Part shown: positions 15,110 through 61,898 of the stretch, piece by piece | Layout of the letters: each line of letters opens with the position of its first letter | How positions within the stretch are numbered: position 1 is the first letter of the stretch | NCBI GenBank assembly: GCA_963575745.1 | Contig: CAUYUJ010000003.1 | Coordinates: 992,001-1,056,000, forward strand | Source of the DNA: Prorocentrum cordatum | Lineage: Eukaryota | Reading direction: 5' to 3' | Length of the DNA: 64,000 nucleotides | Made by a program: the position numbers and the translations under genes | Notes under the pieces: generated by a model | The model's input: the letters and a program-made list of their open reading frames with translations, nothing else | What the model was told of the DNA's origin: nothing | Databases searched by the model: none

Positions 15110-16760
15110 CTGGCCGTCCATCGCGTTGAGGATGCACCCCCGGCCCATGCTGCCCTCGGTCACTGGGTCGGCCGCATGCCCCGAGCGTCGCACCAGAGTC
15201 GGTCCTCGATCTGTTTGGCGCGCGACTGCACCACTGGCGTCTTGTCATGCTCTTCTCGGAGCGCGGCTGCGCCCGGCCCATGGGCAGGGCGTCGTGGGCG
15301 GACGTGCCGTCGATGACTCGATCACCAGGGATGGCGCAATCTCCTTCCTCCCTCACCCCCCTGATCTCCTCGGCAAAAGCGGGGCCGCGCACCGTCCCGC
15401 GCGGAGCGAGGAGGCGCGCCTGCAGTCCGCAGGCTGCGCCGCACGCTGCGAGCAGCTCTGAACCGAACGAGGATCTGCGCGCCAGCTTGCGCGATCGCCC
15501 CACTGAGCCCGACAAGTGGCACGCCCGGTTGCAGGTGCGGCGGCGCCTGCCGAGACGAATGCACACGGCCCCCCTCGCGCCGCGCCCTTCCCCCCCCCAC
15601 TTGACTGGCCCGTCGCTGTGCGCGCTGAGTCGTCTGACACGCTCCGCGGCTGGAAATGCGACGCGGGCCTGCACCTTCTGCGTGGCCAAAGCCACTGGGC
15701 TGACCTGCATCGCGCGTCGGATGAGAAGCCTGTCTTCGGCTCTCTGCAGGGCGACGATGCACGCGGCCGCATGGGGCTGAGCGAGCAGGGCGCAAGCCGC
15801 TGCTCCCAAAAGGGGGACCAGACGGCCTGGGAGCTGACCTCCAGCCGCCACGTCAGCCTTGGCCTTGACGAGGCCGACGCGTCCGATCGATATGAGAGCG
15901 TCGATGCGCTCGTCCTGGTCGAGCGCCACGGCGCCATCGGCACCGCGACGATGGTGAACTCCACAAGTGGTGAAACTATCGCAGTCACCTTTCGTTTTGC
16001 CGAAAGCGACGCGGCAAATCAGCCCGTCGACGCGCCCCTTGCGTCCAACGACCTTCAGATCGTCAACGAGCTCGGGGCAAGATGAGCACTGGCTGTGAGC
16101 TTCTGGTGCCGCAGGCACCAGACGTCTCGCACATGACCTCGCGCCCCAGGCCCCGCGCGGCGGGCGGGGCGCCGCGCTCTGGCACGCGTGGCCCAGGCTT
16201 GCTTCGTGGAAGGATCGGGGCGCACCGTTGCAGCCCGTGCCCGGATTGATGCGTCGCAAGGTCTCAATCTGCCCATCGCGTCTCTCGCGGCTCGGCCCCT
16301 GCTGGTGGACGGCAATGCTGCCGGGCGGCGCTGCGAAGTTCACATCGCGGGACCCCCCGCCTTGTTCCTGCGTCTCGGCGAAGGCCATGCTCGGAGGAGC
16401 GCCTTCTCGACGCCCGCGGCGACGCGCGCCCAGTTGGGGCGGCGCGACGTCGCCGGGGGCCGTAGGCCCTACGACGCCCCCTTCGCTGTGCCAGCGAACG
16501 TCTCGCGCCGGATGATCCGGGCAGTCTTGCCGTCAGATTCATTCCGGCACTTCCTATGAAAGACGCGTTTGGAGTCCGTCGCGTTCCGGGCGCCCGTGAG
16601 CGGCGTCTCTCGAAGCGCGCGCACTTGACTCAAATGGTGGGCTCTTCGAGGGCGGCCGCTGCGAGCTATCTTGACAGCCTCGACACTTCCTTGTCGGTCG
16701 CGCTTGATGACCGCGGTCTTAACGGCGGCGCGAATATCACGCGCGGCCGTCAGGCGAGCG
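15110..16760 (-). pseudogene. Copia reverse transcriptase + RNase H remnant
   Basis: GARNATDSKRVF, PGTGCNGAPRSF, VDDLKVVG, FTTCGVHHRR..VALDQ, RSSFGSELLAA, ADPVTEGS in ORFs 16469..16864, 15000..16388 and 14570..15193. Confidence 0.8.
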
Positions 16761-17329
16761 CTGGCGACACAGCCACCAGACGCAGTCTCGTTGAAGCTCG
16801 AGAATGCTGCGCGAGCCCCTGGGTCAAAATACAGCTCCACTACCACCAGCGGCTCGTCGCCCAAGATGAGCTCAATGATGCGAGCTTCCTACGAATGCTC
16901 GCCGATGAGCTGATGGACGTCGAACTTGACGCTGTTGAGGTGGATGCGAAGGACGTCGGTCGGGCCCGAGGGGGCCGCCAGATGTGAACTGCGACCGCAG
17001 CCTGTCCAGTTGCCCGCATATTTCTGGCGGCGCATCAGACGCATAGCGTGACTTTCTGGCAGCTGAAAGCGTCTGCAGAACAGATGGCGCAGAGCTTCGA
17101 GAACGCCTGGACGCTGTCAGGTCTGCTCGGTGATCTGCGTGCCCTTCTCGTCTTCCCAGTGGCCGAAGGCCCCGGAACTGGAGCCTGGCGCGACGTGCCC
17201 CAAGTAGTCCTCCACGCGGTCCCAGGTCAAGCCTGCTCGCGCCACGCCGACGCCCATGTCGTCGAACGCAGCCGCGATGCTTGTCCAGACGTCTTGCAGT
17301 CTGCATGCCATCTCGGCTGGGCGGTCTGC

Positions 17330-18260
17330 GTAATAATGGCCGTTCCAGGGCTGGCCCAGGCAGACGCGTCCTCCGTGCTCGGGGGCGCGAGGATCCCCAC
17401 CTGGTCGCCAAGGTTGAAACGGCCTTGCCCGGACTCGGTGGTGCGGGTCCGGAGGGCGCGACCGACGCGCGAGATCGGCGTGGCCTCGATCATGCGTTCC
17501 AGAGCGATCGCGGCTACGCCACTGCGGTCGGCCGGGCTGCACTTCTCCACCAGCCGGGGTCTCAGCGCGCCAGTGCCGGAGGCACCGGATACCTCACCCT
17601 CTTCGTCTGCTTCCAGTGGTGGCAGCATAGGCTTCTGCTGTCCGAAGACGATGTCGCATGATATAACGCCGCCTACGCGGGCGAGGCCGTTGCCAGGAAG
17701 CGCAGCGCGCGCCGGCGCAGTCGCCGCGACGCCTTCGCAGTCCAGCTGCCCTTCCGCGGCGCGCGCGGCGCCAGGTCGCCAGATGAAGCGAGCGTGATGA
17801 CGAACAGCCCGGATATCAATCGATACTCCTCGCATTTCCATGACCTCCACGAAGTATGGCGAGGCCACCCAGCCATCGCCGTCCACGATGCACGTCTCCA
17901 TCGCACCGAACATCTGAATCCATGAACGGTCGAAGCCGGCGAGCGATATCCCGGCCACTGTGCCGCGGCGAGGCGCAGCTGATCAGGCGGGGGGCCATGC
18001 GATCCTCGTAGCGCAGGGTGTCGCACCCGTCGCGCTGGTTGGTTGGATCGTGTCGAAAGGCGGAGGGCAGGGATGGTCTGGCCAGCTGGTAGTAGCCACT
18101 TGCGGCACTCCCTGCTGTAGTTCACCACCGTCGGTGTGAGGTTGAGGATGCCGTGTGGTATGTTGGCTGCTCGTAGTCTCGTGGTATCTCCTCCTTAGTG
18201 CCATGCGACCAGAGGTGCAGCTGGCGCAGTTCCCGCATGCGCGTCTCATGCGAGTCACCG
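17330..18260 (-). pseudogene. Integrase remnant
   Basis: HHCC-like LRQLHLWSH...SRECRKW; core SWIQMFGAMETCIVDGDG..RGVSIDIRAVRHHARFI; C-terminal FNLGDQV (ORF 17227..17958). Confidence 0.7.
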
Positions 18261-18979
18261 CGGGAGGCTCATAGGGATGTGGCGACGTCGAAGCGGGCCC
18301 AGTGTGCGGGCGTCAGGTTGCCTGCAGCTGCGTCGGCAACTCGTGGCGCCGACCGTCGGGACTCTGCGCCTGCTGCTGGACAAGCTCGCGCCCCTGGCCC
18401 AGTGACAATCACCCGAACCGTTGCTCTGAAGTCGAGTGACACAGCCACCCGAACCGCTACCCTGAGCCCCAGCGCTCGTTGAAGAGCTGGCTCCTGATTC
18501 CCCTGCGGGCGCGGGTGGGAGAGCAGCCTCGTCTGCTGCTCCAAGGTCTGCGCCGCTGGGTAGTTGAGCCTGCTGATCGCTGGATTGACGTGGTCCTCCA
18601 GGTCGCGCTGGTGCTCGCGGGCGCTGACCGGCGCGCGGGCGCGGCCGTTCGCGGGGATCCAGGAACCTGCGCTTGCCGAATACACGGGCGTCTATTAGGC
18701 GGTCGCGTTCCTCCTCCTCCTGGCATGCGAGGCGCTCCCTTGTGGATCGGGGGGCCGTGAGGATAGCGGCGCGTTGCTGGATGGGGCGCGCGGGCCTGTG
18801 CGCCCGCATGTGGCGGTCGCGCGCCTTGCAGGTGCGGCGCGCGCGCGGCCGCCACGGAACGTCTGCCCTCGCCCTCCGCGGCCCCTGCAGCCACCGTCGG
18901 GAAGGCCGACGGTCGGGCGCCGCGCTCGCGAACGCTGTTTGCGAAGCGCGGACGACGCAGACGGCGACGCATGTCCACT

Positions 18980-19580
18980 ATGTCCGCCCGACCATCTTCC
19001 ATGGCCCGTCTGGGCGTCGAAGCTGTCGCGGCCCACGACGTGGGCATGGGCGCGCTTGCCCGGGCACCCAAGATTTGCGCGCTACGCGAGGACCTCTGGA
19101 ACGCTGGAGACCAGACCGGAAGTCTTCCGCAAGACGCCTGCGCGACGACCTCGATGCCCAGGCTGACGCTGGTCGAAGACGACCTTGTCCACACCTAGCG
19201 CACCCACGACCTCTGGCCATAGCGGCTCGTCGCGCAGCCATGATGGCTCGGGTTGCTCGTTGACGAAGTAGACGCCCAGCTCGAGCTGCAGCTGTGAAAG
19301 ATAAGCGCAGAATCGGCTGTGGGTGGCCGCGCCCTCGTGGGAATGCAGCCAGGCGCGGCAGTTTCGCCGATGATTGAAAATGGTCCAAGGATGGCAAGGT
19401 CGGGGCCAAGATGGCAACGAATGGCCGAGGTTGCGGAACAAATCGTTCATCGGCGCGCTGCTGGCTCTCGTCGTCGAGGCCGCAGCCGGTCACCAAGTCG
19501 ACGATTTCGCCAACTCGATGGTGGCCGCGGATAGCCAGGCTGCAAGTCCGCGCCTCTCCTCCGTAAACCCCCATAGCGTC
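18980..19580 (-). pseudogene. Degenerate C5 DNA methyltransferase-like domain in copia element 1
   Basis: MGVYGGEAR (motif I-like); VDLVTGCGLDDESQQR..RPFVAILAPT aligns by eye with MDLRTGWDFDDKSQRE..KPMFVVASPAC at 58.3 kb; YFVNEQP (motif VI); VVFDQ. Confidence 0.65.
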
Positions 19581-21229
19581 GGCGCCGTAGTCGACTGAAG
19601 CGAAGTAGGTGAGAAGCTGGTGGGGGGGCGTCGAACTCGGTGGGCGGCGCTGTTGGAGCACTAGCGGACGCCCCATCGGGGGCCAGCTGGTTGAGAAGCG
19701 CTCCGCAAACAAAACGGAGAATAGCCATGCGGCGATCAATATCTGGCTCGGGATCCGACGAGCCTCGGAAACACCGCGTCAGCAGACCTGCGGCAAGGTT
19801 GCCATGGAGGGCGCCCTCGTCGCACTTGTCGGCTTCAGAGTCGCAAGAGGCTGGAAGGCCGAGAAGAAGGGTCGAAGCTGCAGTCGACGTGGTGGTCTTC
19901 GGCGACCTGCATGCACGTCTTGGGCACATGGCCCTCCTGTATATTCGCCTGCTGGCGTATGCGCTCTGCTGTTAGGCAGGCGTTGGTGACGCAGTCACCG
20001 GGCGCCTCCCGCGGTTGTTCGTGCTTGTGGTCCTGGGTGTTTGATGTGTTTGAGTGTAGGCGGTCGTGGGTGCGCCGCTTGGCGTCGTGCTTGCGGTGCG
20101 CCACTGGACTGGAAGATGTGTTCGGGTCAAGCTGTCGTCGTGCCTCGCTGAAGCCGCACCCTCCTCGACGCGCCTTGGCTGGGTGGAGCGCCACTGCAGT
20201 AGGGTGCACGTCGCAACGCCTCGCGGCGCATCAGGGCTGCGTGCACTCATCGGTTGATGATCGTCCAGTCGTCGGTGTGCTCCTCCAAATCGACGTTGCA
20301 CTGGCGCAGCCGGTTGCAGACGGGCGCCCCAGTGAGCGCCGCGAAGACAGCGTGGCTGCGCTCGATCTACCGGGCCGAAGGCTTGTGGCACGCCCGATTC
20401 TGATTCAGATGGAGCGCGTGGGTGTCGATCATCTGCCGTGCAGTTGGTCGAGTCCACTATTGGCCATGCCGGCCAATGACCGCTATCCTGGCGCTGGCAT
20501 CCCTGGCCCTGGGGAACCAGTCAGGAAGGGGTCGAGGACGAGGTGAGTCTCGTCCCTCGTCGCGTCGCACGTAGCCCGCAGCATGCTGTAGCTGGCGCTA
20601 GGGGGCCGCTCTTGTCCGACAGCACGTTCCGAACGTGCTCTCGGACAACGACTTCCCGGCGCCCCCAAAGTCTGAGGTGCGAATGACGTCGAAGCCGTGG
20701 TCTTGTAGTGCTAGCGATGAGTCTCGCCCTCGCCCCGGGGCCCAGGCGGGGCGCGCTGGCCCGGCCGATCACTTCCGCAGGGGCAGGTCGACGGGGCCAG
20801 CCTGGCGAGCCGGCCCGGCTGTTTCCTGGCGAGGCAGCTCCTTGGACCCCTCAATGCCACAAGCACCCGAAGACCTCTCGGACGTCGCGCAGCCTACCTC
20901 TCGCGCAGAGGAGTCTTGGCTCAGGAACGCCATGCCAGTGCGTCCGAAACTCCAGATCCACGAGGTGGTGGAGGAAGCTTGGCAACGACGGCGATGTCGG
21001 CATCGCCGGCGATGTGCTCCACCATGAGCCAGGGCATTGCGCGGCCCTGCACGACCGCGCACGTCCGCGGGAGGGCGCTGGACATGATCACTTGGACCTC
21101 GCAGTGGGAGTCGGGGCCCGCCACGACGCCCGCGACGCCGATCCCCCTCGGGGCGAGTCCGGTGCTAGGGGCCGCGCGAAGGTAATTGCCCGGCAAAGCG
21201 AAGGCTGCCGCGCCCGCGAATGATCCACG

Positions 21230-21570
21230 CCCGTCTCCGCCACCCCGTTGCTGGACTGCGTGGGCCGTCGACCTCGCAGGGAGGGGGGGTCAGCGCCCGC
21301 GCCCTCCATGGCCGGCGAGCGCGCGCTGCGCCGACGGGCCGCGCGGTCGCGAAGGGCCACCGCGATGGGGCAGTGCATCTCGCGGCGCGCTACCTGCGAC
21401 GTGTTGCCAACGCCCACTGCGCACAATGGGGTGGGAACTTCTCCTCAGAGGGCCGCGGCTTCGCCTGCTGGGCCTTGCGGGCCAAATTCACGGCGAAACG
21501 CAATCCCCATGGTTCGTCCAGGCGCCGGCGTCGACTGCGACGCTTAATCGACCGCCCTTCAGATCGGTGC
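21230..21570 (-). pseudogene. Retroviral-type aspartic protease remnant
   Basis: YLASTDLKGGRLSVAVDAGAWTN followed by VGVGNTSQ..CPIAV in a shifted frame. Confidence 0.6.
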
Positions 21571-23149
21571 TCGCCAAGTAGCGCGGCGACTCGGTCGATG
21601 AACTCGATCGAGCCTGTGCCCGACGAGGTCGGTCACCACGCGCAGGTCCAGATGGGCGGCGCAGGGCGCCGCCGCGCCCACTGCGGACGCGAAGCTGGGC
21701 GCGCCGCCCGGCGACTGCACGAGGTCTTGCCGAGGCGCCCCGAAGCAGGGGCTGGTCGGGGAGACCGCGCGCGGTCCTGCTGCGGCGGGGCCTCCTCTGG
21801 CGCGCCCCCGCCCGCTGCCGCGCGGGCCGACGCCGCGGGCGCCGGGCCCGCCGATGCGCGCTCTGCGCCGATAAAACGGAAATCGGCGACGACGTCGGCC
21901 AGGCCGCGGCGCGGCCTGCAGGCAGCGCGCCGCACGGGCGCCCGCGCCTTGCACCGGCGGCACATGGCATGCCCGGAGCAGAACGCGGCTGCACAGCGGG
22001 AGCGCCACCCTCGCGCCATGCTGGAAGGCCTTGACGCAGCAGGGGCGCTCCTGATCATCGCCGGCGAAAGCCGCGACAAAGGGATGCTCGGCAGGCGTCG
22101 CGGCCAGCGCGGGAGGATGATCAACGAGGGCTTCTGTCCAACTCTGCGCGGCCTGACGCCGCCGCTCGCCCTGCTGCCGCATGAGCTCAAGGGCTAGCTG
22201 TGCGCCAGAGAGCTCGTCGAGGCGCCGCCGCTGCGCGCGGCCGAGGGCGGCGCCCGCGTCGCGCTCGGATCGGCCGCCGCTGGCCATCTAGGTCTCGCAG
22301 CTGGCAAACCGCATGGCCACTCTCCCAGACAGCTGACTCGCGTCGACGGGGCTGTTCTGGTTGACCAGAGCCAGCTCCTGGGGAGATTCTGGCACTGGCG
22401 GTGGCGCAGCTGCCCGCGCGGACTTTGGTCGCCACGTGGAGCTCGATCTACATGGAGTGCTGACTGATGCCGCGGTCGGGAGGCGGGGCTGGTGGCGCGG
22501 CGACTCGCGCGTTGGTTGCCGACCCAGTCGCGCTCCTGAGCTTGCCCCAGTTGGGTCGCGCCGCCGACTCGCGTCCTTGCGGTCTTGGTTGTGGTTGCGC
22601 CGTGGAGGCCGCTGGAGCGGTCGGCGCTGCCGGCGCGGCCGCTGCCCCGGCGCCGCCGCGGGCGGCGCCGCTTCCCCCGCCGACGCCGCGCGGGCTGGCG
22701 GCGCAATCACGGGGCCCGCTGGCGCTGCAGATTCTTGCGCGCGGCCCGCGAATTCTGCCATCCGCCGCCCTTGTCGTCGCAGTTCCGAAAGTTTGGGCGA
22801 TGACGAAGATGGGGGTGACGCGCCTACCCACTGTGACCAGCGGCCGCGGCCATCTCGTTGCCGAGGGCCGTCTGGCGACGCACTTGGAGCGGCTGCTGTC
22901 GCTCTCGGCCGCGTCGCCGGCGCTGCTGGAGTCGGATGCCCGCCCGCCCGTGGGCCAGCGCCCTGCGTGAAATCGCCATCCCCAGGGCCCCTGGCCGAGG
23001 GGCAGCGGAGTGCCAGGACCGCCCCTAATCATCCGCGCGGCGCATGTGCCTGGCGAAGGCAGATGCTCGGACGCCCCGCTGCCCCAGCCGCGCGAGCGGC
23101 GACAATGCTGGCGGCGAAGGCGGCGCCAGGGCGCAGGCGCTGAGCAAGG

Positions 23150-24340
23150 GGGCGCGCCCTCGCCTGCGGCGCTGGGGGCAGTCGTTCACGAGGCGCCCCT
23201 GAGGCTTGCACTCGCGGCATTTGAGACGCGGCCCACCATGGCCGGGGGCGTTTGCCCTGGCGGCCCGAACCCGCGCCGCTGGCCCTGCACTTCCCCTTGC
23301 CTCTGCCTTTGCCTTTGCCCTTCCGCGAGCCCGCGAAAGCCTCCCGGGCGCCGTTGTCGCGCGGGTCGGCCAGGCAGGTGCGGCGGCCTTGTTCGATGAC
23401 CCCCTGGGCGCAGCGCGCGGGCTTCCAGCGCCGACGTGCTTCGGCGCGCTCGCGAGCCCCAAAAAGGTGCCCACCGCGCCGCCCCACTGGAAAGCCGCGC
23501 AGCTCGGGGCCGTCTGCGGCAATTTCTTCGCCGAAAGAGCGGGCGGCATCTGCGTCTATGCCTGAGTCGACGCCTGCCATGGGGAGGTCCCCTGCGTTGG
23601 CGCCGCCGCGCTGGCGTCGCCGGCGGCGACTGCCGGCGCGGGCGGGCCTGGCGCCGCCCCCAGCGCAGCTGGACCCGTGCCGTTCCCTCTCGATCCGGCC
23701 ACGGCGCCACAGGCATCCTGAACCTGATCTCGAGTGGGCGCGCCCGTCAGGATGGCGCGCTGTCGGGCGCAATGGGCCGCCGAGGCGAGATTGTCCGACG
23801 CCTCGATCGCGCGCTCAAAGCGCCGCAGGCGGCCCATCGCGCGCGCGAGTTGCTGGACCTTCGCGGCGCAGGCAATATTGCGGCGAGATCATGGTCGGTT
23901 GGACGTTCGACGCGCCAGCCGCGCACAGCAGGAGGAAGCTGAGACCCTCGTGGCCGATCGTGAATCGACCGACTTGCTGCGCCCAAGCCCGCGGGATGGC
24001 GAATCTCGCGAGGAGATTGTCCATGCGCTCTTGAAGCGGCGCTCCACCTCGCCCAGTTGGCCCCGCCGTTCCTGCGCGTCGGGAGGATGATCGGCGGCGC
24101 TGGGTCGCCGTTGACGAGGCCCCCTGGACCACGACAGCTGGCGGCCGTTCGCCCGCGCACTCGCGCGCCATGCTGGCGAGGCGCGTCGAGTCGCAGGCAG
24201 CCTGGCGAAACTCGTTAGGGCCTGAGTTCACCGGTGACCAGATCATCACCTCGCGCACCCATCTCTGGAAGAGGCACTCGAGCTTGCTGCTCGGGCCCCC
24301 AAGTTCGGAGGCGCAGCGCGCTGCCGCTGTCGCCGCCTGC
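23150..24340 (-). pseudogene. Gag remnant with degenerate zinc knuckle
   Basis: FQRWVREVMIW..RQAA..ERMDNLLARF; CRECKPQGRLVNDCP (CCHC with H->R). Confidence 0.65.
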
Positions 24341-25296
24341 GCCCGCGCGGGAGATGCTGGTGGCGATGGCAACGACGTCCACCCCGATGGCCTCCCATCC
24401 AGCGCGTGGCTCCCTCTGCGCGTCACATTAGCGCTGGAGGCCAAGGATCGACCAACGGCTCTGCTCGTGAAGTGTGCCTCCGAGCCGCCGTGGATGCCCG
24501 CCCGGGACGGGTTCCTCCTCGTCTGCCCACTGGGCGCGGGATGCGGCGCTCTCGGCGCTCGGGGCATCCCGGAGCGCAGGCAGGGGAGTGCTTCTCGCAC
24601 GTCGAAGCGTCACTGTGCTGAGCGCCGCCAACTGCGCGATCATCGACAGGAGTGCGCATCGGGACGCAGCCCTGCCGGGCTGATGGGGATGCGTGGGCGA
24701 GGCAAAAGGTCGCGCACCAAGGGGTCGGCGGGTTCTCCCAGATCCGCTTCGCTGTCCCTCGGAGCCCTGGCGACACAGTCGCCATACCCCCCATTGCATC
24801 CCCGCTCTTCTCTGGTTGATCCTCACAAGGCTTTCATGACGCTGTCACCAGAAGCCTGGGGCCCTTACCAGACACCGCAGAAATCAACGTTGTGCAGAGC
24901 AGCGATAGGAGATGTGCGACTACATCCACAAGCGGGTGCATTGACGGCAGGAAGTCCGCGAACTGCGTTGACGCAATCAATGCAAACCCGGGAGGGATCG
25001 CTCAAAACTTCGGCGCGCCACGAGGTTCGTCGTCGTCGTCGTCAGCGGCGCGGCCCGGGTCCTTGTACGTAGGTTTGACATACTTGTTGGTATGCATGTT
25101 GATGCATTGTTTGATGCCAAGGTGCACCAAGGCGAAACTTATAATGGATATATCGCTGAGCGGCCAGCATGATGAACAGCGAACAGCTTGATGTAGAGCG
25201 GCGGAGGACGCGAGCTGGCACCATCGAAGCAATGCAACACATGGCGGCCGTGGTATTGGAGCCGAGGCCCCGCCACCAACTCGAGAAAGTGATGTG

Positions 25297-30012: not shown

Positions 30013-31730
<1,718 letters not shown>

Positions 31731-39774: not shown

Positions 39775-39795
39775 GGATGCACACACACATATATA

Positions 39796-39851
<56 letters not shown>
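39724..39851. repeat. (TA)n-rich microsatellite flanking the DIRS-order element
   Basis: Read directly. Confidence 0.95.
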
Positions 39852-40920: not shown

Positions 40921-40978
40921 CCGAACCTCAGGGCCCCCTTCAAAAAACTGCCAGCAGCTCGAATCCTACATCTCTCAT

Positions 40979-41915: not shown

Positions 41916-42289
41916 CCACTGACGGGGAGTCGCGACGCCTCTGGCGCTCCACCGCCCTCCTCGCTTGAAGCCGAGCAGCCTTCAGGTGGCCCCCCATTCC
42001 CCTCTTCGGCAGTCGAGAGGTCCGAGGAGCTGGAGGAGCCCGAGTCGGCGTAGGGCGGCCCGAGCCCACATGAGGTCGGCTCGGCGTAGGCAGTGACCCC
42101 GACGCCCTCAGGCACCTTGTCGGCCTCCCCGAACTCCTGCCCAGGCCCGACGCCGCCGAGCCCAGCGGGGCGCGCGAGAGCGGCCTCCTCGAGCTCCCGT
42201 TCCCAGGCATGCTCGATAATCCGCTGGTGCTCGCGGCTGTCGTCCGCGCGAGCATGGCGGGGGTCTGACCGTGGGTCCCGAGGGGCACG

Positions 42290-43990: not shown

Positions 43991-44453
43991 TAGCGAGTCC
44001 AAAGCGTTGCTTTTGAACCGATCCGTCGGGAGCGACACCAGACCTTCGGCGCACATCACTGACTTCACAGGCGAGGTGTCGCAGCCTGGAGAAATGCTGC
44101 GCAGCCCCCGAAGGACCGCCGCAGAGGTGCAAGTAGGGGGCCCAAGCCCGCGAATTCGAAATTGAAGATGCCCCAGCCCAGTTCGATGAGCTTGAGAAAG
44201 AATACCACATGTGCTAGCGCCGCCCTGGCAGCAGAGCCAGTTGAGCGCGGCGGCCGGACCCCGCACCCAGAGGTCGCAGAAGTAGCCCCGACGCCCCTTC
44301 GACCGTCGATGTCGAGTCGAAGGCGCTGGCTATGTAGAAGCCTGGGAAGAGAGTAAATGAACAGGTGCTGGGAGCAGCTCACGAGGAACAGGCGTCCCGC
44401 GGCAGCTCGCCCGCTGAGGCGCGGGGCGAGCCAAGGGGGTGAGGCTCCCTCCG

Positions 44454-55875: not shown

Positions 55876-55948
55876 TGGATGAGTCTGTTCTCCACTAAGC
55901 CAAAACCGCTTGATGCACATGGCCACGGAGGACTGACCTGCATATCCA
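55876..55948 (-). repeat. 3' LTR (73 bp, TGGAT...ATCCA)
   Basis: 66/73 identical to 62137-62209; short purine run gggaggg just upstream on the - strand (PPT candidate). Confidence 0.9.
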
Positions 55949-56149
55949 AACAGCCCTCCCGGCGGCCGGCACCTCTCGCGCGCCTGGCAGCCGCTCGCTC
56001 CGGTAGTCCTTACTACCCGAAGCCTCGCTCTCAAAATGGTCGACCAGCTGTGCCGGCTGGGCTCGCCAGGCCCAGGATCTCAAAACGGTAGCGGGGCATG
56101 GCGATCCACGGGGAAACTGGCTCAAGCCGTGGACCCCAGCGCCGCCTTC

Positions 56150-57790
56150 AGGGCCAACCTGCTCGACCCCGTCATTCTGACGAGGCCCAGGCTGGCGGGG
56201 AATCTGGCGATCAACGTCGCCTCGACATGCTTGGCGCCCAGGTCCGCACTGTTGGCGGCGCCTGGCACCTTCCTGATCTTCACAAGGCCACGCTGCACAG
56301 AGGGGCGCACGCAGATGGCGGATGCGTCCTACGCCGCGCCGCTCCGCGATACCTTTGCCCGCGGCGGCGTCGCAGCGCAGCTCCACGTCGACGTTGCCGT
56401 AGCCGCAGTCCTCCAGCAGGGCGCGGAAGCCAAGCCCCGCCGTGGCCCCCATGACTTGGGCGTGGAACTCGGCCTCCCCCGTCGAGAGGCTTTGTACCTG
56501 TTGGGTCGTCGAAGACGACTTGATCCAGCGCGGGCAGTACAGCGCACTCATAGCCGAGGTGGACTTCCTCGTCCGCGTGCAGCCCGCGAAATCACTGTCC
56601 GTGAAGATGCTCAGCTTCTTCGGCGGCGGCTGCCTGGCGCACGTCGCCACCGGCCGGGGCCCCCAGCAGGTAGCGCCCCATCCTCTCGAGCGCCTCCCAG
56701 CCTCCCAACGTCGGCGCCTGCATCACGCGCGCCGCCTCCTTCGAGCTGAACTGCAGGTCGGGCCTGTCCAGCGCGAGGTAGGCCAGCCTCGCGCACGCGG
56801 ACCTGTACATCTCGCGCTCGCGCCCCTTCAGCCCCTCGCCGCCCAGCGCGTCCTTCTCGACGCCAGGCGCGCTGACGGGCTTACTCTTGCCGTCGTTCCC
56901 GAGCTGCGCCAGCGCGATCTCCACATGTCGAGGGTCCGCCTCGTACTCGATGCGGTCGGGCGAGACCCCGTCGCCTGGCACCCAACGCAAGATGCGGTTG
57001 AGCACCACGATCTCCTTCGCGTCGCCCTCGCTCGCTTCCGGGCCCAGGATGCCGCGGCACTTGACGATCAACTGCTTGCCCGGGCCTGCCTCGAAGTCCC
57101 TCGCCTCCGAGCGGCCGCCGAAGGCGACGAAGTCGTCGCCGTGGCGCCACGCCACCAGCGACCCCATCCTGTAGACGCATTGGCCGAACTGCCCCTGCCG
57201 CGCCCCGAGCTCCCCCATGACCTCCTCCACCTTCAGGTCGAAAGCCGCGCCGGCATCCCACAGCCCGCGCACGGCCTTCAGCAGGAGCCAGCGCTCGTCC
57301 TCCCCGCACTTCTCGTCCTCTGCCGGCACCTTCAGGTAGACGCGCCGCAAGAGCTCCGAGTGCAGGTGGGCCCTGGATATGTCCAGGAACATGAGGACCA
57401 TGCCCTGCGAGGCTCTGCGCGACATGGCCAGGGAGAGCAGCGGCCGCAGCCCCTCGAGCGGCGGCGTGGCCGCGAAGGTCTGCGCCGCATCCTCTGGGCC
57501 CAGCGCGCTGAGCCTCCGCGTCTCCTTCGCGACGAGCCTGCTGCGGATCTCCGGCCCGAGCTCGTCGCCCTTGTTCATGCCGATCCAGCCGCTGGGCAGC
57601 GGCCGAGTCCCTGTGGGCTCACGACACTCGCTCGTCGGCACCCGCCGGAAGACGCCCGGCCTCTCCATGTAGGCCATCTCCTTAGCTCGCGCCGCGCGCA
57701 CAATCTTCGGGCCCAGCCGCGCGCCCGAGATGCCATCGAAGAGCTCCTCGAGCTCCTCCGGCGTCGCCGCCTCGATGGCCTCCGGCTCCT
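56150..57790 (-). pseudogene. Copia RT + RNase H
   Basis: RSRLVAKE, FAATPPLE, FLDISRAH, WRHGDDF, DRPDLQF; TDSDFAGC..RKSTS, LSTGEAE, GVGRIRHL, NSADLGAK. Confidence 0.93.
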
Positions 57791-57859
57791 CGATCGCCGC
57801 GCCGACCATGAACGCGTGGATCCCGCGCCCGATCTCCAGCTGCTCACGCATGCCAGACA

Positions 57860-58480
57860 GGATGGCCTTGACCAGCGGGATCGGGTACCGCGCGGCCGCC
57901 TAGCTCCTGCCTCCGACCAGGTGCACGTGCTGGTGGTCCTTGGCGCGCAGGACCCCCGCGCGCTTCGCAATGGCCGGGCTGTTCGTCATCCAGCCCGTCG
58001 CCTTCGCCACCGGCCCGGCGACCCCGTCTGGCCCCTTCGAGGTCTGCCCGAAGCCACACTGGTGGCCCTTCGCCACCATGATGCCCTCCAGCAGCCGCAC
58101 CTTCTCTTCGATCTTGAGGTGCCAGCTCCAGGCCGTCCACGGGTGCTCGCACACGAAGAACCGGCCCTCGCGCTGCTGGAGTGCGCAGATCTCCATGACG
58201 AGCTCGAGGTAGACGACGCAGCGCTTCAGCAGCGCCTGGCACTGCTCCTCATCGCGCACCTTCTCGCCCATCTTCAGGATCAGCGAGAATGGCGTGCACG
58301 CGGGGCTCGCCACCACGAACATGGGCTTGCTCTCCGTGATCTCCTGCATCGCCAACTCGCGCTGGCTCTTGTCGTCGAAGTCCCAGCCGGTCCGCAGGTC
58401 CATGGCGATCCCCGGCTTCAGGTCGAAGCGCGGCGCCAGCCTGCAGAACTCGCCCGGGTTGAACACCTCCGCGATGACAC
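57860..58480 (-). pseudogene. C5 cytosine DNA methyltransferase-like domain in copia pol
   Basis: IAEVFNPG (motif I-like), MDLRTGWDF, VVASPACTPFS (motif IV, catalytic Cys region), FVCEHP (VI), HQCGFG..KATGW (VIII-like), AARYP after the stop at 57900. Confidence 0.8.
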
Positions 58481-58799
58481 CCTCGAAGGCTCCCAACTGC
58501 ATCAGCAAGGCGCCTTTCTGTCTGGCGTCCGCGACCGTCAGCTGGGCCGCCTCCGCGCCCCGTGGGGCCGCCACTGCCGCGGCGCCGCCTGGCCCTGAGG
58601 CAGCGCTCGGGGCGGACTCGGCGCTGCAGCCTGACTCGGAGCCGGCTGCGCTGGCTCCTGGCGGCGGGCTGCCTCTCGCCCTCTTGGCCTCAGGGGCCGC
58701 CTGGTCCTCCGCCGAGGGGGGGCCCTCGTGGCCCTCGCGCTCTCGACTCGCTGGCTCGGATCCATGTCCTATGCCATCGCCTCCTCAACGCGCTTCCGG

Positions 58800-59930
58800 C
58801 AATCCTCTGAGTGCGCCTGAGCGGGCCGCCCGAGGGTCGCTGACATGCAACCGTAGCATCCCTCGGTGTACCCGTGCCTCTCTGCAGCTCGACGTCGCGC
58901 CTCAGGTAGACGCGCCTCGGCGCCCCTGGCACCGTCGGCGTCGGCACATCCGGCAGCTGCGCGTCGGGCGCCACCTGGTCCGCCACGATCTTCGCGCGCG
59001 CCGGCGGCGCCGCCGGGCCGCCGCCCCAGTCGGGGGCACGATGGCCCTCGATGCCTCCTGGGACCGAGTCCCAAGGCGCCCCGCGCATCTCGGCCAGCAG
59101 CACCTTGTCCGACCTGCTGGGCCCCTGGAGGCGCCTCGCGCTGCGGGCCTGGAAGACCCCCCTCGGCGCGCCGATGTACACCTCGTCGGTGCCCTCCACG
59201 ACCCCGAAGAAGATGCGCCCCAGCCACCTGTCCACCAGCCGCGACGCCCTCTTGCCCGCAGGCAAGTAGAAGACCTTCGCCGAGAAGGCCAGCAGTGGCT
59301 TCTTGAATTTCTCAGCTCGCATGGCGTCCTGCCATTGGCTGCCCGCTGGCCTCGGCTGAGCATTGGGCCAGCGTGCCGCGCAAGCCACGGCAGCACGGGA
59401 CGACTCTGCCCGAACACCGCCCTGTGCAGCTCCTCCGCCGCGTGCCGCAGTGTGCGCACGAGACCCTCGATGTCTCGCACCGCTCCTTCTGCGAGCCCAT
59501 TGCTCTGGGACTCGCCCACGGCCGACTCCTCGGTCATGGCCGCGACGCCCTTATCCTTGACCTGCACCGCAGCTGCGGCCTTCAGGGCCAGGGTGGACTT
59601 CTCCTGGTCCGACCCCAGGTACATCTTCGCGCAGCCCATCTGCGCGCAGAGCCGCGCCAACGTCTCCACGTTGAAGGGGTGCGTCAGCCCCTTGCTCGGC
59701 AGCACCTCACTCAAAGTCCATCGAGTCGCCGAGCCTCGCACCATCGGGATCGGCGAGGAGCCGTCCTCGCCGTCCTCGTTTCCGCCCTAGTCCATCGCGA
59801 CGATGGGCACTCCGTCCTCCGCGCGGTCGCACTGCTCATGTGGAGCCGCGCGCCCGCGGCCCGCCGCGCAGCGGCGGCGCCGCGCCCGGGCGGGGGCGCG
59901 GCTCACCTCGTGGTCCATCTTCTCCTGCTC
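58800..59930 (-). pseudogene. Copia integrase
   Basis: Degenerate HHCC, PIVAMD*, LGSDQE, ESQSNGLAEGAVR, RHGYTEGCYGC. Confidence 0.88.
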
Positions 59931-60199
59931 CGCGGGCCCCCGCGGTCTCCTCGCGGCCCTGATCGCGGGGGCCTCCGCATCGCTCTCGCCGTCCTCGCCC
60001 GGCTGTGCCGGGCGGCGCTGCTCGCCGCCCTCACCTGGCTGTGCCGGGGGGGACTGCTCGCCGTAGGGATCCTCGACAACTGGAGGGAGCTCGTCGTCGC
60101 CACCTCCACGCAACGGGCAGATCTCACTGCCCTCCGCGAGTGCCAGGCAGACAGCGGTCAGGCCTGCCGGGTGAAACCCGGCGGCCCCTGGCCCAGCAC

Positions 60200-60620
60200 C
60201 CCGCGCGCCTTCGCGTGCGGGTCGACGCCCAGCTCCGCCTCGTACACGTTGTTGCGCCTCACGAAGTCGCTCTCCTGCCCTGTGCTCTCGTTCCTCGCGA
60301 AGCTCCTCTCGCTGCCGAAGACGATCGCGTGCCCCGCATCGACCATCTCCGAGACTGAGGCCAGCCCCTTTGTCACAGGGGCCACCCTCGCCTTGGTGCC
60401 CTTGATCACGGCGTGCCGCCCGCGGTGGCGATCTCGCCCGCGAGCTCGCGCGTGCCGCAGTTGGGTGCCCAGCCACCGCCCGCCGTGCGGTTGCCTTCGC
60501 CATTCCTGCTCATCTCGTTCTCCGCCAACGGGTAGTCCGTGAAGCTCTCCTTGGGCATCGCCGTCGTAGCCGCGCCGGAGTCGACGCCCATCGCGAGCTT
60601 CCGAGGGCCGCGCGCGACCG
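60200..60620 (-). pseudogene. Aspartic protease
   Basis: MGVDSGAATTAMP; VTKGLASVSEMVDAGHAIVF. Confidence 0.85.
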
Positions 60621-60713
60621 CCCCCAGCTCCAGCAGCTTGCCGTAGAGCTCCTCGCTCACGATCCCGTTGTCCTGCAGCAGGTCGCAGGCCGCCTGCGCC
60701 GCGTCGCCCTTGT

Positions 60714-61898
60714 TCAGGGCGTTGAGGATGAGCCCGCGGATGGCCTTCTCAGGCTCCGGCTTACGACCCCATCGACAGCCGAGACCTCACGCTGTTTGCA
60801 GTCCTTGGAGATGCGGCCCGGCTTGTTGCACTTGTAGCACGCGCGCTGCTCTGAGCCGTGCCCAGCGCCAGCGCCGCCGCCGGGCCCTCCTCCACCGCCT
60901 CGGCCTCCCTTGCTGACCTCCCCGTCGTCTCCCTTGACCTTGCCGCCGCCGCCGCGGCCCTTGTCCTTGTCGGCGAACCAGCAGTCCTTCTCGAGGTGCC
61001 CTTGGCGGCCGCAGTTGAGGCACGGGCCGACCGGCTTTGGAGGCTGAGGGTAGCCGTGGCCACCCCCCCTCTTGCCGCCCGTGCCTCCGCCCTTGCCCCC
61101 GAAGGCTCCGAGCTCCATCGGCATCGGTCCTCCAGGAGTCGCCGCCACTGCTGCCTGGGCGCGGCGCACGCTCACAATCTCCTCGCAGAACTGCACCCAC
61201 TGCTCGAGCCTCTCCGCGTTCAAGATCCCGTGCTGCTTCAGCGGGCTGTCTGGCAACCTCTGCAGCGCGATTCCGATCTTGATGGCGTTGCTCAGCTGCT
61301 CGCCCGCCTGGCCCTCGCAGAGCGAGATCTCGCGCTCGAAGGCCTCCAACCTCGTGATGAGCTCGCTGCCGAAGTCCCAGCTGGGCAGCTGCATCACGAG
61401 GCCCGCGTACCTCGTTCGCACCTGAGGCTCGTAGCGGTGGTTCAGTTGCCGCCACGCCTCCAGGCCCTCCAGCGCACCCGAATTTTGCACCACGTCGAAG
61501 GCCTGAGCCCTGCACGTCTGCACAAGCCAGTAGTGCAGCTGGCGGCTGATCTCCACGCCGTCGTCCTCCAGGGTCGCATTGAGCATGGGCACCGTTGCCC
61601 TCGCTGCCCTCTGGAGCGCCTCCGCCATGCGAGGGTTGGTTGCTCCTGCGTACGCCCCGAAGACGACCGACCAGTCCCGCCACTTCGTGCCGTCGAAGTG
61701 CTCGGGCTTGCCTATCGTCCGAACCTCTGCGGCCCAACGCTTAGCCGCCGGCGCCGCTCCCTCCCGCTGTGCGGGTGCAGCCGCCCGCGCCTCGTCCGCT
61801 GCCTGCCGCGCCTGCGCGGCCTCTCCTCTCTCCGCGATGAGCTCCTGCTGCGTCGCGTGCATCTGCGCCTGCAGGTCACGCAGAACCTGCTCCGCCAT
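60714..61898 (-). CDS. Copia Gag with two CCHC zinc knuckles
   Basis: GKPEHFDG..W, GLEAWRQL..RYEP, PMELG, CLNCGRQGHLEKDC, CYKCNKPGRISKDC. Confidence 0.9.
   Translation of the reverse strand: MAEQVLRDLQAQMHATQQELIAERGEAAQARQAADEARAAAPAQREGAAPAAKRWAAEVRTIGKPEHFDGTKWRDWSVVFGAYAGATNPRMAEALQRAARATVPMLNATLEDDGVEISRQLHYWLVQTCRAQAFDVVQNSGALEGLEAWRQLNHRYEPQVRTRYAGLVMQLPSWDFGSELITRLEAFEREISLCEGQAGEQLSNAIKIGIALQRLPDSPLKQHGILNAERLEQWVQFCEEIVSVRRAQAAVAATPGGPMPMELGAFGGKGGGTGGKRGGGHGYPQPPKPVGPCLNCGRQGHLEKDCWFADKDKGRGGGGKVKGDDGEVSKGGRGGGGGPGGGAGAGHGSEQRACYKCNKPGRISKDCKQREVSAVDGVVSRSLRRPSAGSSSTP

What the first reader, a model, noticed from the sequence alone, without database searches (positions are those of the whole stretch)
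15110..60850. Retroelements appear to be inactivated by A:T->G:C transitions (reverse of CpG decay/RIP)
Seen: in all three elements, codons at motif positions differ from the family consensus residue by a single A->G or T->C. DIRS: YVD->YVG (GGC, ~43335), SDAS->SGAS (~42873), LDAR->LGAR (~43749), MGWS->MGRS (CGG, ~43473). Copia 2: WxD->WIG (~57580), knuckle H->R (~60814), HHCC H/W/C->R (59870-59900), DLGTK->DLGAK (~56235), RHLHT->RHLRA (~56308). Copia 1: NDAPR->NGAPR (~16225), motif I E->G (~19570), knuckle H->R (~23194). Established: methylated repeats normally decay by C->T, and dinoflagellates replace part of their thymine with 5-hydroxymethyluracil. Inference: a T->C biased mutational process, possibly linked to modified thymine, erodes these repeats and may act as a genome-defence-like mechanism that also creates CpGs. 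Caveats: ancestral residues are recalled consensus motifs, the examples were picked by eye, and some lesions differ (TAC->TAG at ~59788).
Basis: partly seen in the sequence, partly recalled or inferred. Interest (0 to 1): 0.85.

Follow-up and report, generated by a model that had tools for sequence, protein, structure and literature searches.

The report
GC-ward decay of dinoflagellate retroelement relics
Dead retrotransposon copies in a GC-rich dinoflagellate genome have lost conserved residues about twice as often through A:T-to-G:C as through G:C-to-A:T transitions, often creating CpGs, which looks more like this genome's general GC-ward pressure than a dedicated defence.

Summary
The lesions are real. 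Checked against lineage-specific relatives (best named hits: Prorocentrum cordatum), all 4 DIRS picks and the WIG and HHCC picks of Copia 2 are private A>G or T>C changes of the window copies. DLGAK and RHLRA are shared with a sister copy. The second-knuckle pick is ambiguous. The three Copia 1 picks cannot be tested.

The list was one-sided. Of 52 polarised private single-base changes in the two window copies, 24.5 are AT>GC transitions, 12.2 GC>AT transitions and 15.4 transversions. Per available site, AT>GC transitions are 3.4 times as frequent (95% CI 1.6-6.8). CpG-creating transitions (15 of 167 sites) outrun CpG-destroying ones (6.5 of 262; p = 0.002). Sister copies show the same direction.

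Inactivation does not rest on these changes. Copia 2 also carries about 8 frame changes and stop codons made by other substitutions, and AT>GC transitions cannot create stops.

Repeat specificity, a 5hmU link and a defence role remain untested, because no genome was available. Two satellites in the window show a weaker bias (ratio 2.2, p = 0.006), which is only a hint.

Most likely this is neutral decay under a GC-ward, CpG-preserving repair or fixation bias.

The parts
56014..61898 (-). Copia 2: decayed Ty1/copia-like element (gag, integrase, extra domain, RT, RNase H) with about 8 frame changes and in-path stops at 57902, 58904, 59789 and 60408
   Evidence: tblastn against the full-length sister P0049 (78% identity) and others. 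Pfam RVT_2 at 1.4e-10 and zf-CCHC.
60798..61022 (-). Two gag zinc knuckles: CLNCGRQGHLEKDC (60981-61022, intact) and CYKCNKPGRISKDC (60798-60839, R in place of H)
   Evidence: P0049 has H at the second knuckle, but P0060 and P0070 also carry R.
59867..59933 (-). Integrase HHCC region with five private AT>GC transitions (T>A, H>R, W>R, C>R, V>A)
   Evidence: H in 24 of 24, W in 24 of 24, C in 23 of 24 outgroups.
57903..58544 (-). Extra domain of about 214 aa between integrase and RT, resembling a C5 cytosine methyltransferase (family consensus GSPxCxxFS ... FLHEHP)
   Evidence: Consensus. Model pLDDT 85, pTM 0.80. Top Foldseek hits are DNMT1, M.HhaI and Dnmt2. VIA-align gives only Z 6.5, a generic Rossmann fold. 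Atlas lead.
56592..57899 (-). Copia 2 reverse transcriptase ORF (P0002), including WIG at 57579-57587
   Evidence: Pfam RVT_2; homologues.
39851..46157 (-). DIRS-like element relic. Coding path 44386 to 41018. Repeats are arranged A-coding-B-A-B, with A = 46079-46157 and 40021-40099, and B = 40099-40219 and 39851-39971.
   Evidence: Self-blastn at 96% and 95% identity. tblastn against P0042-P0048. The arrangement matches the DIRS description in the PMC5890265 figure legend.
42077..44386 (-). DIRS-like RT/RNase H frame with 3 in-frame stops. It holds the private changes LGAR, MGRS, YVGG and SGAS.
   Evidence: Sister P0042 is 69% identical. Distant relatives carry RVT_1 below Pfam's threshold.
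15110..24600 (-). 'Copia 1': heavily eroded relic. Only a remnant of the extra domain (19013-19556) and a CCRC knuckle (23178-23219) are detectable.
   Evidence: Family HMM hit with i-Evalue 4e-10; knuckle. No RT, integrase or RNase H was detected.
9931..12531 (.). 83-bp tandem repeat used as control: 7 units at 9931-10516 (+) and 4 units at 12216-12531 (-)
   Evidence: Singletons against the majority: W>S 18, S>W 16; transitions 10 against 11.
30013..31721 (+). (TG)n microsatellite with large (TGCG)n and (TGTGCG)n blocks, that is, amplified TG>CG variants

Best explanation
These are ordinary dead retrotransposon copies: one Ty1/copia-like, one DIRS-like and one nearly erased relic. They sit in a dinoflagellate genome whose nearest named relatives are from Prorocentrum cordatum, and they are decaying neutrally.

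The decay runs under a GC-ward substitution pressure. A:T>G:C transitions occur about 3 times as often per site as the reverse, most strongly at TpG and CpA, which become CpG. I infer that the most likely cause is repair of G.T (or G.5hmU) mispairs toward G.C. This is the same CpG-context base-excision activity that protects methylated CpGs from deamination loss. It would act on the genome at large, not as a repeat-directed defence.

Because amino-acid motifs sit at codon positions 1 and 2, which are the AT-richest positions (GC2 about 0.5), a reader of motifs sees mostly D>G, H>R, W>R, V>A and L>P.

Shown: the direction, size and sequence context of the bias in these copies. Inferred: the repair mechanism and that it acts genome-wide.
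For: 1. Polarised spectrum (window codon against sister copy, with outgroup consensus):
- Window copies, 52 changes: AT>GC transitions 24.5, GC>AT transitions 12.2, per-site ratio 3.44 (CI 1.55-6.77).
- Five lineages, 116 changes: 48.5 against 28.7, ratio 2.93 (CI 1.77-4.72).
- The ratio rises with stricter conservation thresholds: 2.8, then 4.2, then 5.6.

2. The sister copies P0049, P0003 and P0042 show the same direction (24 against 16.5). The bias is therefore not peculiar to this locus.

3. In the window copies A>G (13.5) and T>C (11) are balanced on the sense strand. This fits a process acting on double-stranded DNA.

4. Sequence context:
- CpG-creating transitions: 15 of 167 sites.
- Other AT>GC transitions: 9.5 of 309 (p = 0.01 against CpG-creating).
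- CpG-destroying transitions: 6.5 of 262 (p = 0.002 against CpG-creating).
- Other GC>AT transitions: 5.7 of 554.
CpG o/e is 0.96 for the window and 1.03-1.12 in the copia relics.

5. The implied equilibrium GC of 0.65-0.81 overlaps the relics' GC of 0.64-0.70 and the 65.9% GC of P. cordatum genes (PMC10666404, passage). The elements' GC3 is 0.73-0.92 against GC2 of 0.49-0.53. GC-ward pressure therefore already acted on silent sites while the elements were coding.

6. TDG, MBD4 and SMUG1 excise T and 5hmU opposite G (PMC4627079 and PMC3401444; only the starts of the abstracts seen, in a search listing).

7. Stops and frameshifts arise from other kinds of mutation.
Against: 1. No unique-DNA control could be run, so 'genome-wide' is an inference.

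2. The two noncoding satellites in the same window show a weaker bias. W>S/S>W is 1.34 and 1.55, against 2.75 in the elements, a ratio of ratios of 2.2 with p = 0.006.

3. The inverted-repeat arms show few CpG-context transitions, 7 of 35.

4. The reported genome mean GC of 59.7% lies below the implied equilibrium.

Points 2 to 4 fit a process that is stronger in transposable elements or in GC-rich, CpG-rich DNA.

5. Transversions show a smaller W>S bias (1.6). That favours a transition-specific mutational cause, but it cannot exclude gene conversion.

6. Sister P0049 has A>G 13 against T>C 1 on the sense strand (p = 0.005). A symmetric DNA process does not explain this.

7. No glycosylase was looked for. 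The sample is small and consists only of amino-acid-changing sites in conserved codons.
Confidence: 0.45

Rival explanations
1. A process specific to transposable-element chromatin and linked to base modification. 5hmU and/or 5mC laid on silenced elements raises T>C and A>G changes, for example by excision of 5hmU opposite a misincorporated G. Marked repeats would then erode GC-ward and gain CpGs faster than the rest of the genome. This would be a by-product of silencing rather than an evolved defence.
For: - The element relics show a stronger W>S bias than two satellites in the same window (ratio 2.2, p = 0.006; for window copies, transitions only, 2.5, p = 0.04).
- The relics also have higher GC and CpG o/e than the other segments (0.64-0.70 and 0.92-1.12, against 0.60-0.65 and 0.86-0.92).
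- The bias is mostly in transitions (2.9) rather than transversions (1.6).
- 5hmU is enriched over transposable elements and is made on DNA by a TET/JBP-like enzyme in A. carterae (PMC11572971). It is also enriched over repeats in B. minutum (PMC11071213). Passages of both were read.
- Neither paper discusses mutation. The word 'mutation' occurs 0 times in PMC11071213 and only incidentally in PMC11572971.
Against: - The satellites are themselves repeats, one of them very high-copy in run X1, yet they show little bias. 'Repeat' as such is therefore not the target.
- The satellite controls are small, and concerted evolution makes their polarisation imperfect.
- The higher GC and CpG of the relics can be inherited from GC3-rich coding sequence.
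- Base-resolution mapping in B. minutum found no sequence motif for 5hmU (PMC11071213), whereas here T>C concentrates at TpG.
- There is no 5hmU map for this species.
- AT>GC changes cannot make stop codons, so this would be a poor inactivator.
Confidence: 0.22
2. GC-biased gene conversion. Recombination heteroduplexes are resolved toward G:C, so W>S variants in the relics reach fixation more often. The underlying mutation spectrum need not be GC-biased.
For: - W>S exceeds S>W for transversions as well (ratio 1.6).
- The bias appears in all five lineages.
- The high GC3 (0.73-0.92) of the elements and the GC-rich genes reported for the species are the classical footprint of this process.
Against: - The transversion bias is much weaker than the transition bias, and its counts are small (8.2 against 10.7).
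- The strong CpG-context effect is not a general prediction of biased gene conversion.
- I found no paper on gene conversion in dinoflagellates beyond one on meiosis genes. Search one search returned 12 listed of 56 papers holding at least 3 of the 5 terms.
- Nothing here measures recombination.
Confidence: 0.15
3. The changes arise at the RNA or cDNA stage. A-to-I-type editing of the element's transcript, or reverse-transcriptase G.U or G.T misincorporation, writes A>G (and T>C) changes into new copies at birth.
For: - Sister copy P0049 has 13 A>G against 1 T>C on the sense strand (p = 0.005). These include H>R five times and D>G in the RT motif FLDISRAH, which reads FLGISRAR in P0049.
- P0003 has 4 against 1.
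- Extensive mRNA editing is reported in P. cordatum (PMC10666404, passages). The types of edit were not visible in the text I read.
Against: - The two window copies, which are the subject of the finding, are strand-symmetric (13.5 against 11). Their local clusters mix A>G and T>C, as at 59867-59933.
- The CpG context is unexplained by this reading.
- ADARs are described as conserved in metazoans (PMC6651903; only the start of the abstract seen).
- No RNA run holding this stretch was listed.
Confidence: 0.08
4. There is no real bias. The pattern comes from picking by eye, ascertainment at conserved codons, mis-polarisation, or errors in the sequence itself at modified bases.
For:
- Polarisation in gag is unreliable. 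At the knuckle column the outgroups read H, R, R, R.
- The unpolarised comparison with paralogous contigs is nearly balanced. The window has G/C where others have A/T at 415 places, and the reverse at 365, out of 915 places.
Against: - The opportunity-normalised excess holds at three stringency levels and grows with conservation.
- Within single codons, D>G far outnumbers D>N and H>R outnumbers H>Y (lists).
- A balanced unpolarised count is expected even under a strong shared bias, so one search is not evidence against one.
- Contigs of run X1 match the window exactly across 43585-43881, which holds LGAR. Other copies read T at 57580 and 57272 where the window has C. X1 may be the sample from which the window was assembled.
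Confidence: 0.08

Closest known systems
GC-ward (W>S) biased substitution through biased mismatch repair or GC-biased gene conversion, as described in GC-rich eukaryotic genomes
   Same: There is a net excess of A:T>G:C over G:C>A:T per site. Derived residues are mostly G, A, R and P. GC3 is high. The effect is seen in several independent copies.
   Different: Here the excess is concentrated in transitions at TpG and CpA, which become CpG. It is measured only in dead retroelement copies, and it appears stronger there than in two neighbouring satellites. No link to recombination has been shown.
Repeat-induced point mutation (RIP) in fungi (features recalled from my own knowledge)
   Same: Transitions with a dinucleotide context preference accumulate in repeated elements.
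   Different: RIP runs C:G>T:A, is nearly the only change seen, creates stop codons and AT-rich DNA, and needs duplicated sequence. Here the direction is the opposite, only 47% of polarised changes are of the favoured type, no stop codon can result, and dependence on duplication is untested.
CpG decay of methylated repeats (5mC deamination)
   Same: G/C at CpG changes somewhat faster than other G/C (6.5 of 262 sites against 5.7 of 554). CG methylation is described as widespread in Symbiodinium (PMC5890265, passage).
   Different: The net flux runs toward CpG (15 gains against 6.5 losses). CpG o/e is about 1, not depleted.
Editing of retroelement RNA or cDNA fixed in genomes (ADAR A>G, APOBEC G>A; recalled, no paper read for this)
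   Same: A>G changes dominate in sister copy P0049, with strong sense-strand asymmetry.
   Different: The window copies are strand-symmetric and mix A>G with T>C. No deaminase was examined.
DNMT-carrying retrotransposons of dinoflagellates (SymbioLINE-Dnmt and SymbioDIRS-Dnmt3; PMC5890265)
   Same: The copia-like family here carries an extra domain with PC..FS and E.P motifs. The best fold matches of its model are C5 methyltransferases.
   Different: That paper states that Symbiodinium Copia elements lack any DNMT domain. Pfam DNA_methylase does not hit this domain. The structural match is weak (TM 0.30-0.36; VIA-align Z 6.5 at most).

Membership tests
Ty1/copia LTR retrotransposon (Copia 2) | Copia-type reverse transcriptase (Pfam RVT_2) | tested here: met
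   RVT_2 at 1.4e-10, 41.6 bits against a cut-off of 31.6, in window:56592-57899:-. Relatives score 2e-17 to 1e-8.
Ty1/copia LTR retrotransposon (Copia 2) | Gene order gag (CCHC), then integrase, then RT, then RNase H | tested here: met
   On the minus strand the knuckles lie at 60798-61022, the HHCC residues at 59879-59900, RT at 56592-57899 and the C-terminal part at 56014-56659. Pfam rve did not hit the relatives, so the integrase core rests on the HHCC motif and on family alignment only.
Ty1/copia LTR retrotransposon (Copia 2) | Flanking long terminal repeats | tested here: not met
   Self-blastn of the window found no direct repeat pair flanking 56-62 kb. They may be eroded or lost.
DIRS-like retrotransposon (element at 39851-46157) | Terminal repeats arranged A-coding-B-A-B | tested here: met
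   A = 46079-46157 and 40021-40099 (96% identity). B = 40099-40219 and 39851-39971 (95%). The order on the minus strand matches the PMC5890265 figure legend.
DIRS-like retrotransposon (element at 39851-46157) | Tyrosine recombinase in place of a DDE integrase | tested here: inconclusive
   No Phage_integrase hit in window ORFs or in relatives P0042-P0048. No sequence hit in the PDB for P0044. A conserved C-terminal region does exist (tblastn 41488-41018).
DIRS-like retrotransposon (element at 39851-46157) | RVT_1-type reverse transcriptase | tested here: inconclusive
   The window ORF has no Pfam hit. Relatives match RVT_1 below the cut-off, at E 2e-5 to 0.016 and 15-25 bits against a cut-off of 29.6. 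RT motifs are visible by eye in P0001.
RIP-like repeat-directed hypermutation (genome defence) | One transition type makes up nearly all changes | tested here: not met
   AT>GC transitions are 24.5 of 52 polarised changes (47%) in the window copies. GC>AT transitions are 12.2 and transversions 15.4.
RIP-like repeat-directed hypermutation (genome defence) | Acts only on duplicated sequence, sparing unique DNA | not testable with these tools
   No genome is held. Only one run holds the stretch, and its difference table showed 40 of 915 places. The satellite controls are repeats themselves.
RIP-like repeat-directed hypermutation (genome defence) | The mutations themselves disable genes, for example by creating stops | tested here: not met
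   By the genetic code, A>G and T>C cannot convert a sense codon to TAA, TAG or TGA. The identifiable stops come from A>T (57902), Y>stop transversion (59789) and C>T (43732).
GC-biased gene conversion | W>S advantage for transitions and transversions alike | tested here: inconclusive
   The ratio is 2.9 for transitions and 1.6 for transversions (8.2 against 10.7 events).
ADAR-type editing of the RNA intermediate | A>G excess on the sense strand only, in clusters | tested here: not met
   In the window copies A>G is 13.5 and T>C 11, and the clusters are mixed. The feature is met in sister P0049 (13 against 1).
C5 cytosine DNA methyltransferase (extra domain, 57903-58544) | Catalytic motifs IV (PC) and VI (ENV) on a class I methyltransferase fold | tested here: inconclusive
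   The family consensus reads GSPxCxxFS and FLHEHP; assigning these to motifs IV and VI is my recollection. Foldseek top hits are DNMT1, M.HhaI, Dnmt2, MET1 and DNMT3B at E 8e-4 to 1e-2, probability up to 0.96, TM 0.30-0.36. VIA-align gives at best Z 6.5, mixed with SDRs and Dam. Pfam DNA_methylase gives no hit. The Atlas lead scores 0.86.

The most novel reading that the evidence does not exclude
In Prorocentrum-type dinoflagellates, silenced retroelement DNA undergoes a modification-linked 'reverse CpG decay'. T or 5hmU at TpG (and A at CpA on the other strand) is converted to C (or G) several times faster than CpG is lost, and faster than in neighbouring satellite DNA. Marked transposable elements are therefore driven GC- and CpG-rich. 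A second, sense-strand-specific A>G process acts on some copies, such as P0049. This would be a new, chromatin-targeted mutational regime, and part of the reason why this genome is the most GC-rich dinoflagellate genome among those compared in PMC10666404.
Probability: 0.2. Interest if true: 0.75.

Novelty: new variant of a known kind. Interest (0 to 1): 0.5.

Why it matters
Dinoflagellate DNA is heavily CpG-methylated, and much of its thymine is replaced by 5hmU. The mutational consequences of either modification are unknown.

A CpG-creating, GC-ward transition bias in neutral relics would help explain two things. One is why CpG is not depleted here. The other is why P. cordatum is so GC-rich (59.7%, the highest of the genomes compared in PMC10666404).

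If the bias proves stronger in 5hmU-marked elements, it would give 5hmU a measurable evolutionary cost or role.

The test needs only the public assembly and existing mapping methods. If the bias is simply genome-wide, the finding is an ordinary compositional effect, made to look striking by reading only amino-acid motifs.

Tried and rejected
- Whole genome: none is held. No family-wide consensus and no unique-DNA control could be made.
- Sequencing runs: 3 were listed, and only X1 holds part of the stretch (share 0.11). No RNA holder was listed.
- Read laying at 80% likeness gave 915 differing places for X1, but only 40 rows were shown. The totals are unpolarised (window G/C with others A/T at 415 places, the reverse at 365). 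They say nothing about direction. X2 and X3 barely cover the stretch.
I redid it with stop-free ORFs.
- Copia 1: there was no Pfam hit among its ORFs. There was no tblastn or RT-profile hit. The relaxed tblastn hits were low-complexity matches. Only the extra-domain remnant was found.
- The first polarisation with P0003 alone was superseded by the three-copy scheme.
- Rows dropped from the private counts: 101 codon differences that need 2 or more base changes, 87 'shared' changes and 19 changes with no informative sister. In one search, 86 DIRS columns were unpolarised and 2 were multi-step.
- The (TG)n array was not counted, because slippage amplifies variants.
- The inverted-repeat arms cannot be polarised.
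- PDB sequence searches with P0007 and P0044 gave nothing useful.
- Earlier-findings look-ups were empty.
- I did not scan the metagenome collections. The relatives there are 36-49% identical and could not polarise this genome's changes.
- Literature searches found no paper that links 5hmU to T>C substitution in dinoflagellates. Supplements were not opened.

Full report
What the window is. The 64-kb window has 63% G+C. CpG o/e is 0.96 and TpA o/e is 0.54. Pfam finds almost nothing in it. Two of 34 long minus-strand ORFs in the three flagged regions have hits: RVT_2 at 56592-57899 and zf-CCHC at 60714-61913. None of 150 other ORFs of 140 aa or more has a hit. The nearest named proteins to the window's retroelement ORFs are all labelled Prorocentrum cordatum: P0003 at 80%, P0049 at 78% and P0042 at 69% identity. 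The window is therefore probably from that species or a close relative. The paper on its genome reports 59.7% G+C for the genome and 65.9% for genes (PMC10666404, passages read).

The three elements.

- Copia 2 (56014-61898, minus strand) aligns along the whole 1,799-aa sister polyprotein P0049. The order is gag with two knuckles, an integrase HHCC region, an extra domain, RT, then an RNase H-like end. It is broken by about eight frame changes and by in-path stops at 57902, 58904, 59789 and 60408. No flanking LTR pair is detectable.
- The 'DIRS' element (39851-46157, minus strand) has an RT/RNase H frame with three in-frame stops. Distant relatives carry RVT_1 below Pfam's threshold. Its short repeats are arranged A-coding-B-A-B, the layout described for DIRS elements in the PMC5890265 figure legend. 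A tyrosine recombinase was not detected.
- 'Copia 1' (about 15.1-24.6 kb) is almost erased. A family profile detects only a remnant of the extra domain at 19013-19556, and a CCRC knuckle lies at 23178-23219. No RT, integrase or RNase H signal remains.

Checking the picked lesions.

- DIRS: relatives read LILDTR, PMGWSWS, YVDGVA and SDAS/TDAS. All four picks are real changes private to the window copy. The family's RT motif is YVDG, not YVDD.
- Copia 2, confirmed: the D of WVD is D in 63 of 67 outgroup residues and in both sisters. The HHCC residues are H in 24 of 24, W in 24 of 24 and C in 23 of 24, and all are now R in the window.
- Copia 2, not private or ambiguous: DLGAK is a real A>G change (T in 30 of 32 outgroups) but is shared with P0003. 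RHLRA is also present in P0003. These two are not lesions of this copy alone. The second-knuckle H>R is ambiguous, because P0049 has H but three of four other aligned relatives have R, and two further P. cordatum copies carry CCRC knuckles.
- Copia 1: its picks cannot be polarised.

A polarised spectrum. No genome was available, so I polarised amino-acid-changing single-base differences. I used the window's codons, one or two close sister proteins, and the consensus of more distant relatives. I counted only changes private to one lineage.

- Two window copies, 52 changes: AT>GC transitions 24.5, GC>AT transitions 12.2, transversions 15.4.
- Five lineages, 116 changes: 48.5, 28.7 and 38.9.
- Normalised by the number of possible amino-acid-changing mutations of each class in the same ancestral codons, the AT>GC to GC>AT transition ratio is 3.44 (95% CI 1.55-6.77) for the window copies and 2.93 (1.77-4.72) overall. 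For transversions it is 1.6. For all W>S against S>W changes it is 2.75 (1.83-4.32), which implies an equilibrium G+C of 0.65-0.81.
- The transition ratio rises to 4.2 and 5.6 when only the best-conserved columns are used.
- Against an unbiased null this is highly significant. Against the equilibrium expected for 59.7% or 63% G+C, p is 0.0014 and 0.01. Against 66% it is 0.048, and against 70% it is 0.22.

It does not survive as the near-exclusive pattern that the list suggests.

Strand and context. In the window copies A>G (13.5) and T>C (11) are balanced on the sense strand. This points to a process on double-stranded DNA. The context effect is the most unusual result:

- CpG-creating transitions (TpG or CpA to CpG): 15 of 167 available sites (9.0%).
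- Other AT>GC transitions: 9.5 of 309 (3.1%).
- CpG-destroying transitions: 6.5 of 262 (2.5%).
- Other GC>AT transitions: 5.7 of 554 (1.0%).
- Creating against destroying gives p = 0.002.

CpG sites are thus somewhat hypermutable, as expected if they are methylated, but the return flux is larger. In agreement, CpG o/e is 1.03-1.12 in the copia relics and 0.86-0.92 in the other large segments.

What inactivated the elements. Frame changes and stops would be enough. The identifiable stops come from AAG>TAG (57902; K in 20 relatives and both sisters), Y>TAG (59789; Y in 23 of 27) and CAA>TAA in DIRS (43732). By the genetic code, A>G and T>C can never turn a sense codon into a stop. A GC-ward process is therefore a weak inactivator, unlike RIP or APOBEC-type editing. 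This argues against an evolved defence.

Is it repeat-specific? This could not be tested properly. The one informative run (X1) confirms some details. Its contigs match the window exactly across 43585-43881, which holds LGAR. Paralogous contigs read T where the window has C at 57580 and 57272. The run's totals are unpolarised and nearly balanced, and only 40 of 915 differing places were listed.

As in-window controls I polarised variants in two noncoding satellites against their consensus.

- 83-bp repeat, 11 units, 45 singletons: W>S/S>W is 1.34, and the transition ratio is 1.08.
- 11-bp repeat, 56 units: 1.55, and 2.0 for transitions.
- Together these are weaker than the elements. The ratio of ratios is 2.2 with p = 0.006. 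For the window copies, transitions only, it is 2.5 with p = 0.04.
- The large inverted-repeat arms show only 7 CpG-context transitions among 35 transitions.

These controls hint that the bias is stronger in the element relics. They are small and subject to concerted evolution, and they are repeats themselves.

Against specificity, the elements' GC3 is already 0.73-0.92 while GC2 is about 0.5, and the species' genes are reported at 65.9% G+C. GC-ward pressure on coding-type sequence is therefore old and not confined to dead repeats. Motif-reading samples exactly the codon positions that lie below equilibrium.

Mechanism. I commit, at moderate confidence, to neutral decay under a GC-ward pressure whose transition and CpG-context signature fits repair of G.T or G.5hmU mispairs toward G.C. 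Glycosylases that remove T and 5hmU opposite G are well known (PMC4627079 and PMC3401444; only the starts of the abstracts seen). I did not look for them in this organism.

5hmU is made on DNA by a TET/JBP-like enzyme, and it is enriched on, and helps silence, transposable elements in Amphidinium carterae (PMC11572971). It is also enriched on repeats in Breviolum minutum, without a sequence motif (PMC11071213). I read passages of both. Neither paper discusses mutational consequences, and my searches found no paper that does.

Biased gene conversion remains a live alternative. An RNA- or cDNA-stage process does not fit the window copies. It may fit sister P0049, whose private changes are A>G 13 against T>C 1 on the sense strand, including H>R five times and D>G in the RT active-site motif. 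That asymmetry is unexplained.

Verdict. There is a real, modest GC-ward, CpG-creating transition bias in these relics. It is not shown to be what inactivated them, to be specific to repeats, to be linked to 5hmU, or to be a defence. The decisive analysis is a genome-wide, context-aware, polarised comparison of element copies against unique DNA, overlaid with 5hmU and 5mC maps.

Noticed in passing
window 57903-58544 (-); also 19013-19556 (-) in Copia 1: The copia-like family carries a conserved extra domain of about 200 aa between integrase and RT. Its consensus is DLRxGWD ... GSPxCxxFS ... FLHEHPxxAxSW ... QCxxG ... KPTGWMxN. A confident model (pLDDT 85) matches C5 cytosine methyltransferases best in Foldseek, but only weakly (TM 0.30-0.36). 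VIA-align sees only a generic Rossmann fold. Pfam sees nothing. PMC5890265 states that Symbiodinium Copia elements lack DNMT domains, so a copia element with a DNMT-like domain would be a new combination.
   Followed up: partly
P0049 against window 56014-61898: The sister copy P0049 is a 1,799-aa uninterrupted gene model. Its private changes are 13 A>G against 1 T>C on the sense strand (p = 0.005). They include H>R five times and D>G in the RT motif (FLDISRAH reads FLGISRAR). This is a strand-asymmetric pattern unlike that of the window copies.
   Followed up: partly
window 436-6550: There are nested large inverted repeats. 718-1964 pairs with 3016-4285 (94.7%), 4283-5198 with 5602-6550 (94.5%), and 436-718 with 5199-5485 (82.6%). 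The arms hold 11-bp CCCAAGAGGCC-type satellite blocks. I did not identify the nature of the structure.
   Followed up: partly
window 30013-31721: Two (TG)n tracts contain long (TGCG)n and (TGTGCG)n blocks. TG>CG variants have spread by slippage, while TA variants are rare. This is anecdotally in line with TpG>CpG flux and TpA avoidance.
   Followed up: partly
window 39851-40219 and 46079-46157: The short repeats of the DIRS-like element form the A-coding-B-A-B layout on the minus strand. This fixes the element's ends more precisely than the finding did.
   Followed up: yes
window 23178-23219, 60798-60839; P0060, P0070: Zinc knuckles with R in place of H (CCRC) recur in separate copies and lineages of P. 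cordatum copia-like gag proteins. The H>R change may therefore be recurrent, or tolerated, rather than a one-off lesion.
   Followed up: partly
window 9931-10516 (+) and 12216-12531 (-): An 83-bp tandem repeat is present as two arrays in opposite orientation, about 1.7 kb apart. A 700-bp inverted similarity between 10189-10863 and 11823-12531 (69%) lies around them.
   Followed up: no
window 50671-52004, 47336-48002, 54673-55339: Contigs of run X1 pile up very deeply on these stretches (word depth about 480 to 16,800, against 0.2-9 elsewhere). The 'spacer' between the DIRS-like element and Copia 2 therefore holds high-copy repeats, including the CCCAAGAGGCC satellite.
   Followed up: no
window 36001-38000: This is the most GC-rich stretch of the window (74% G+C, CpG/(TpG+CpA) = 1.4). 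It has long open frames on both strands and no family hit. It may be another eroded relic.
   Followed up: no
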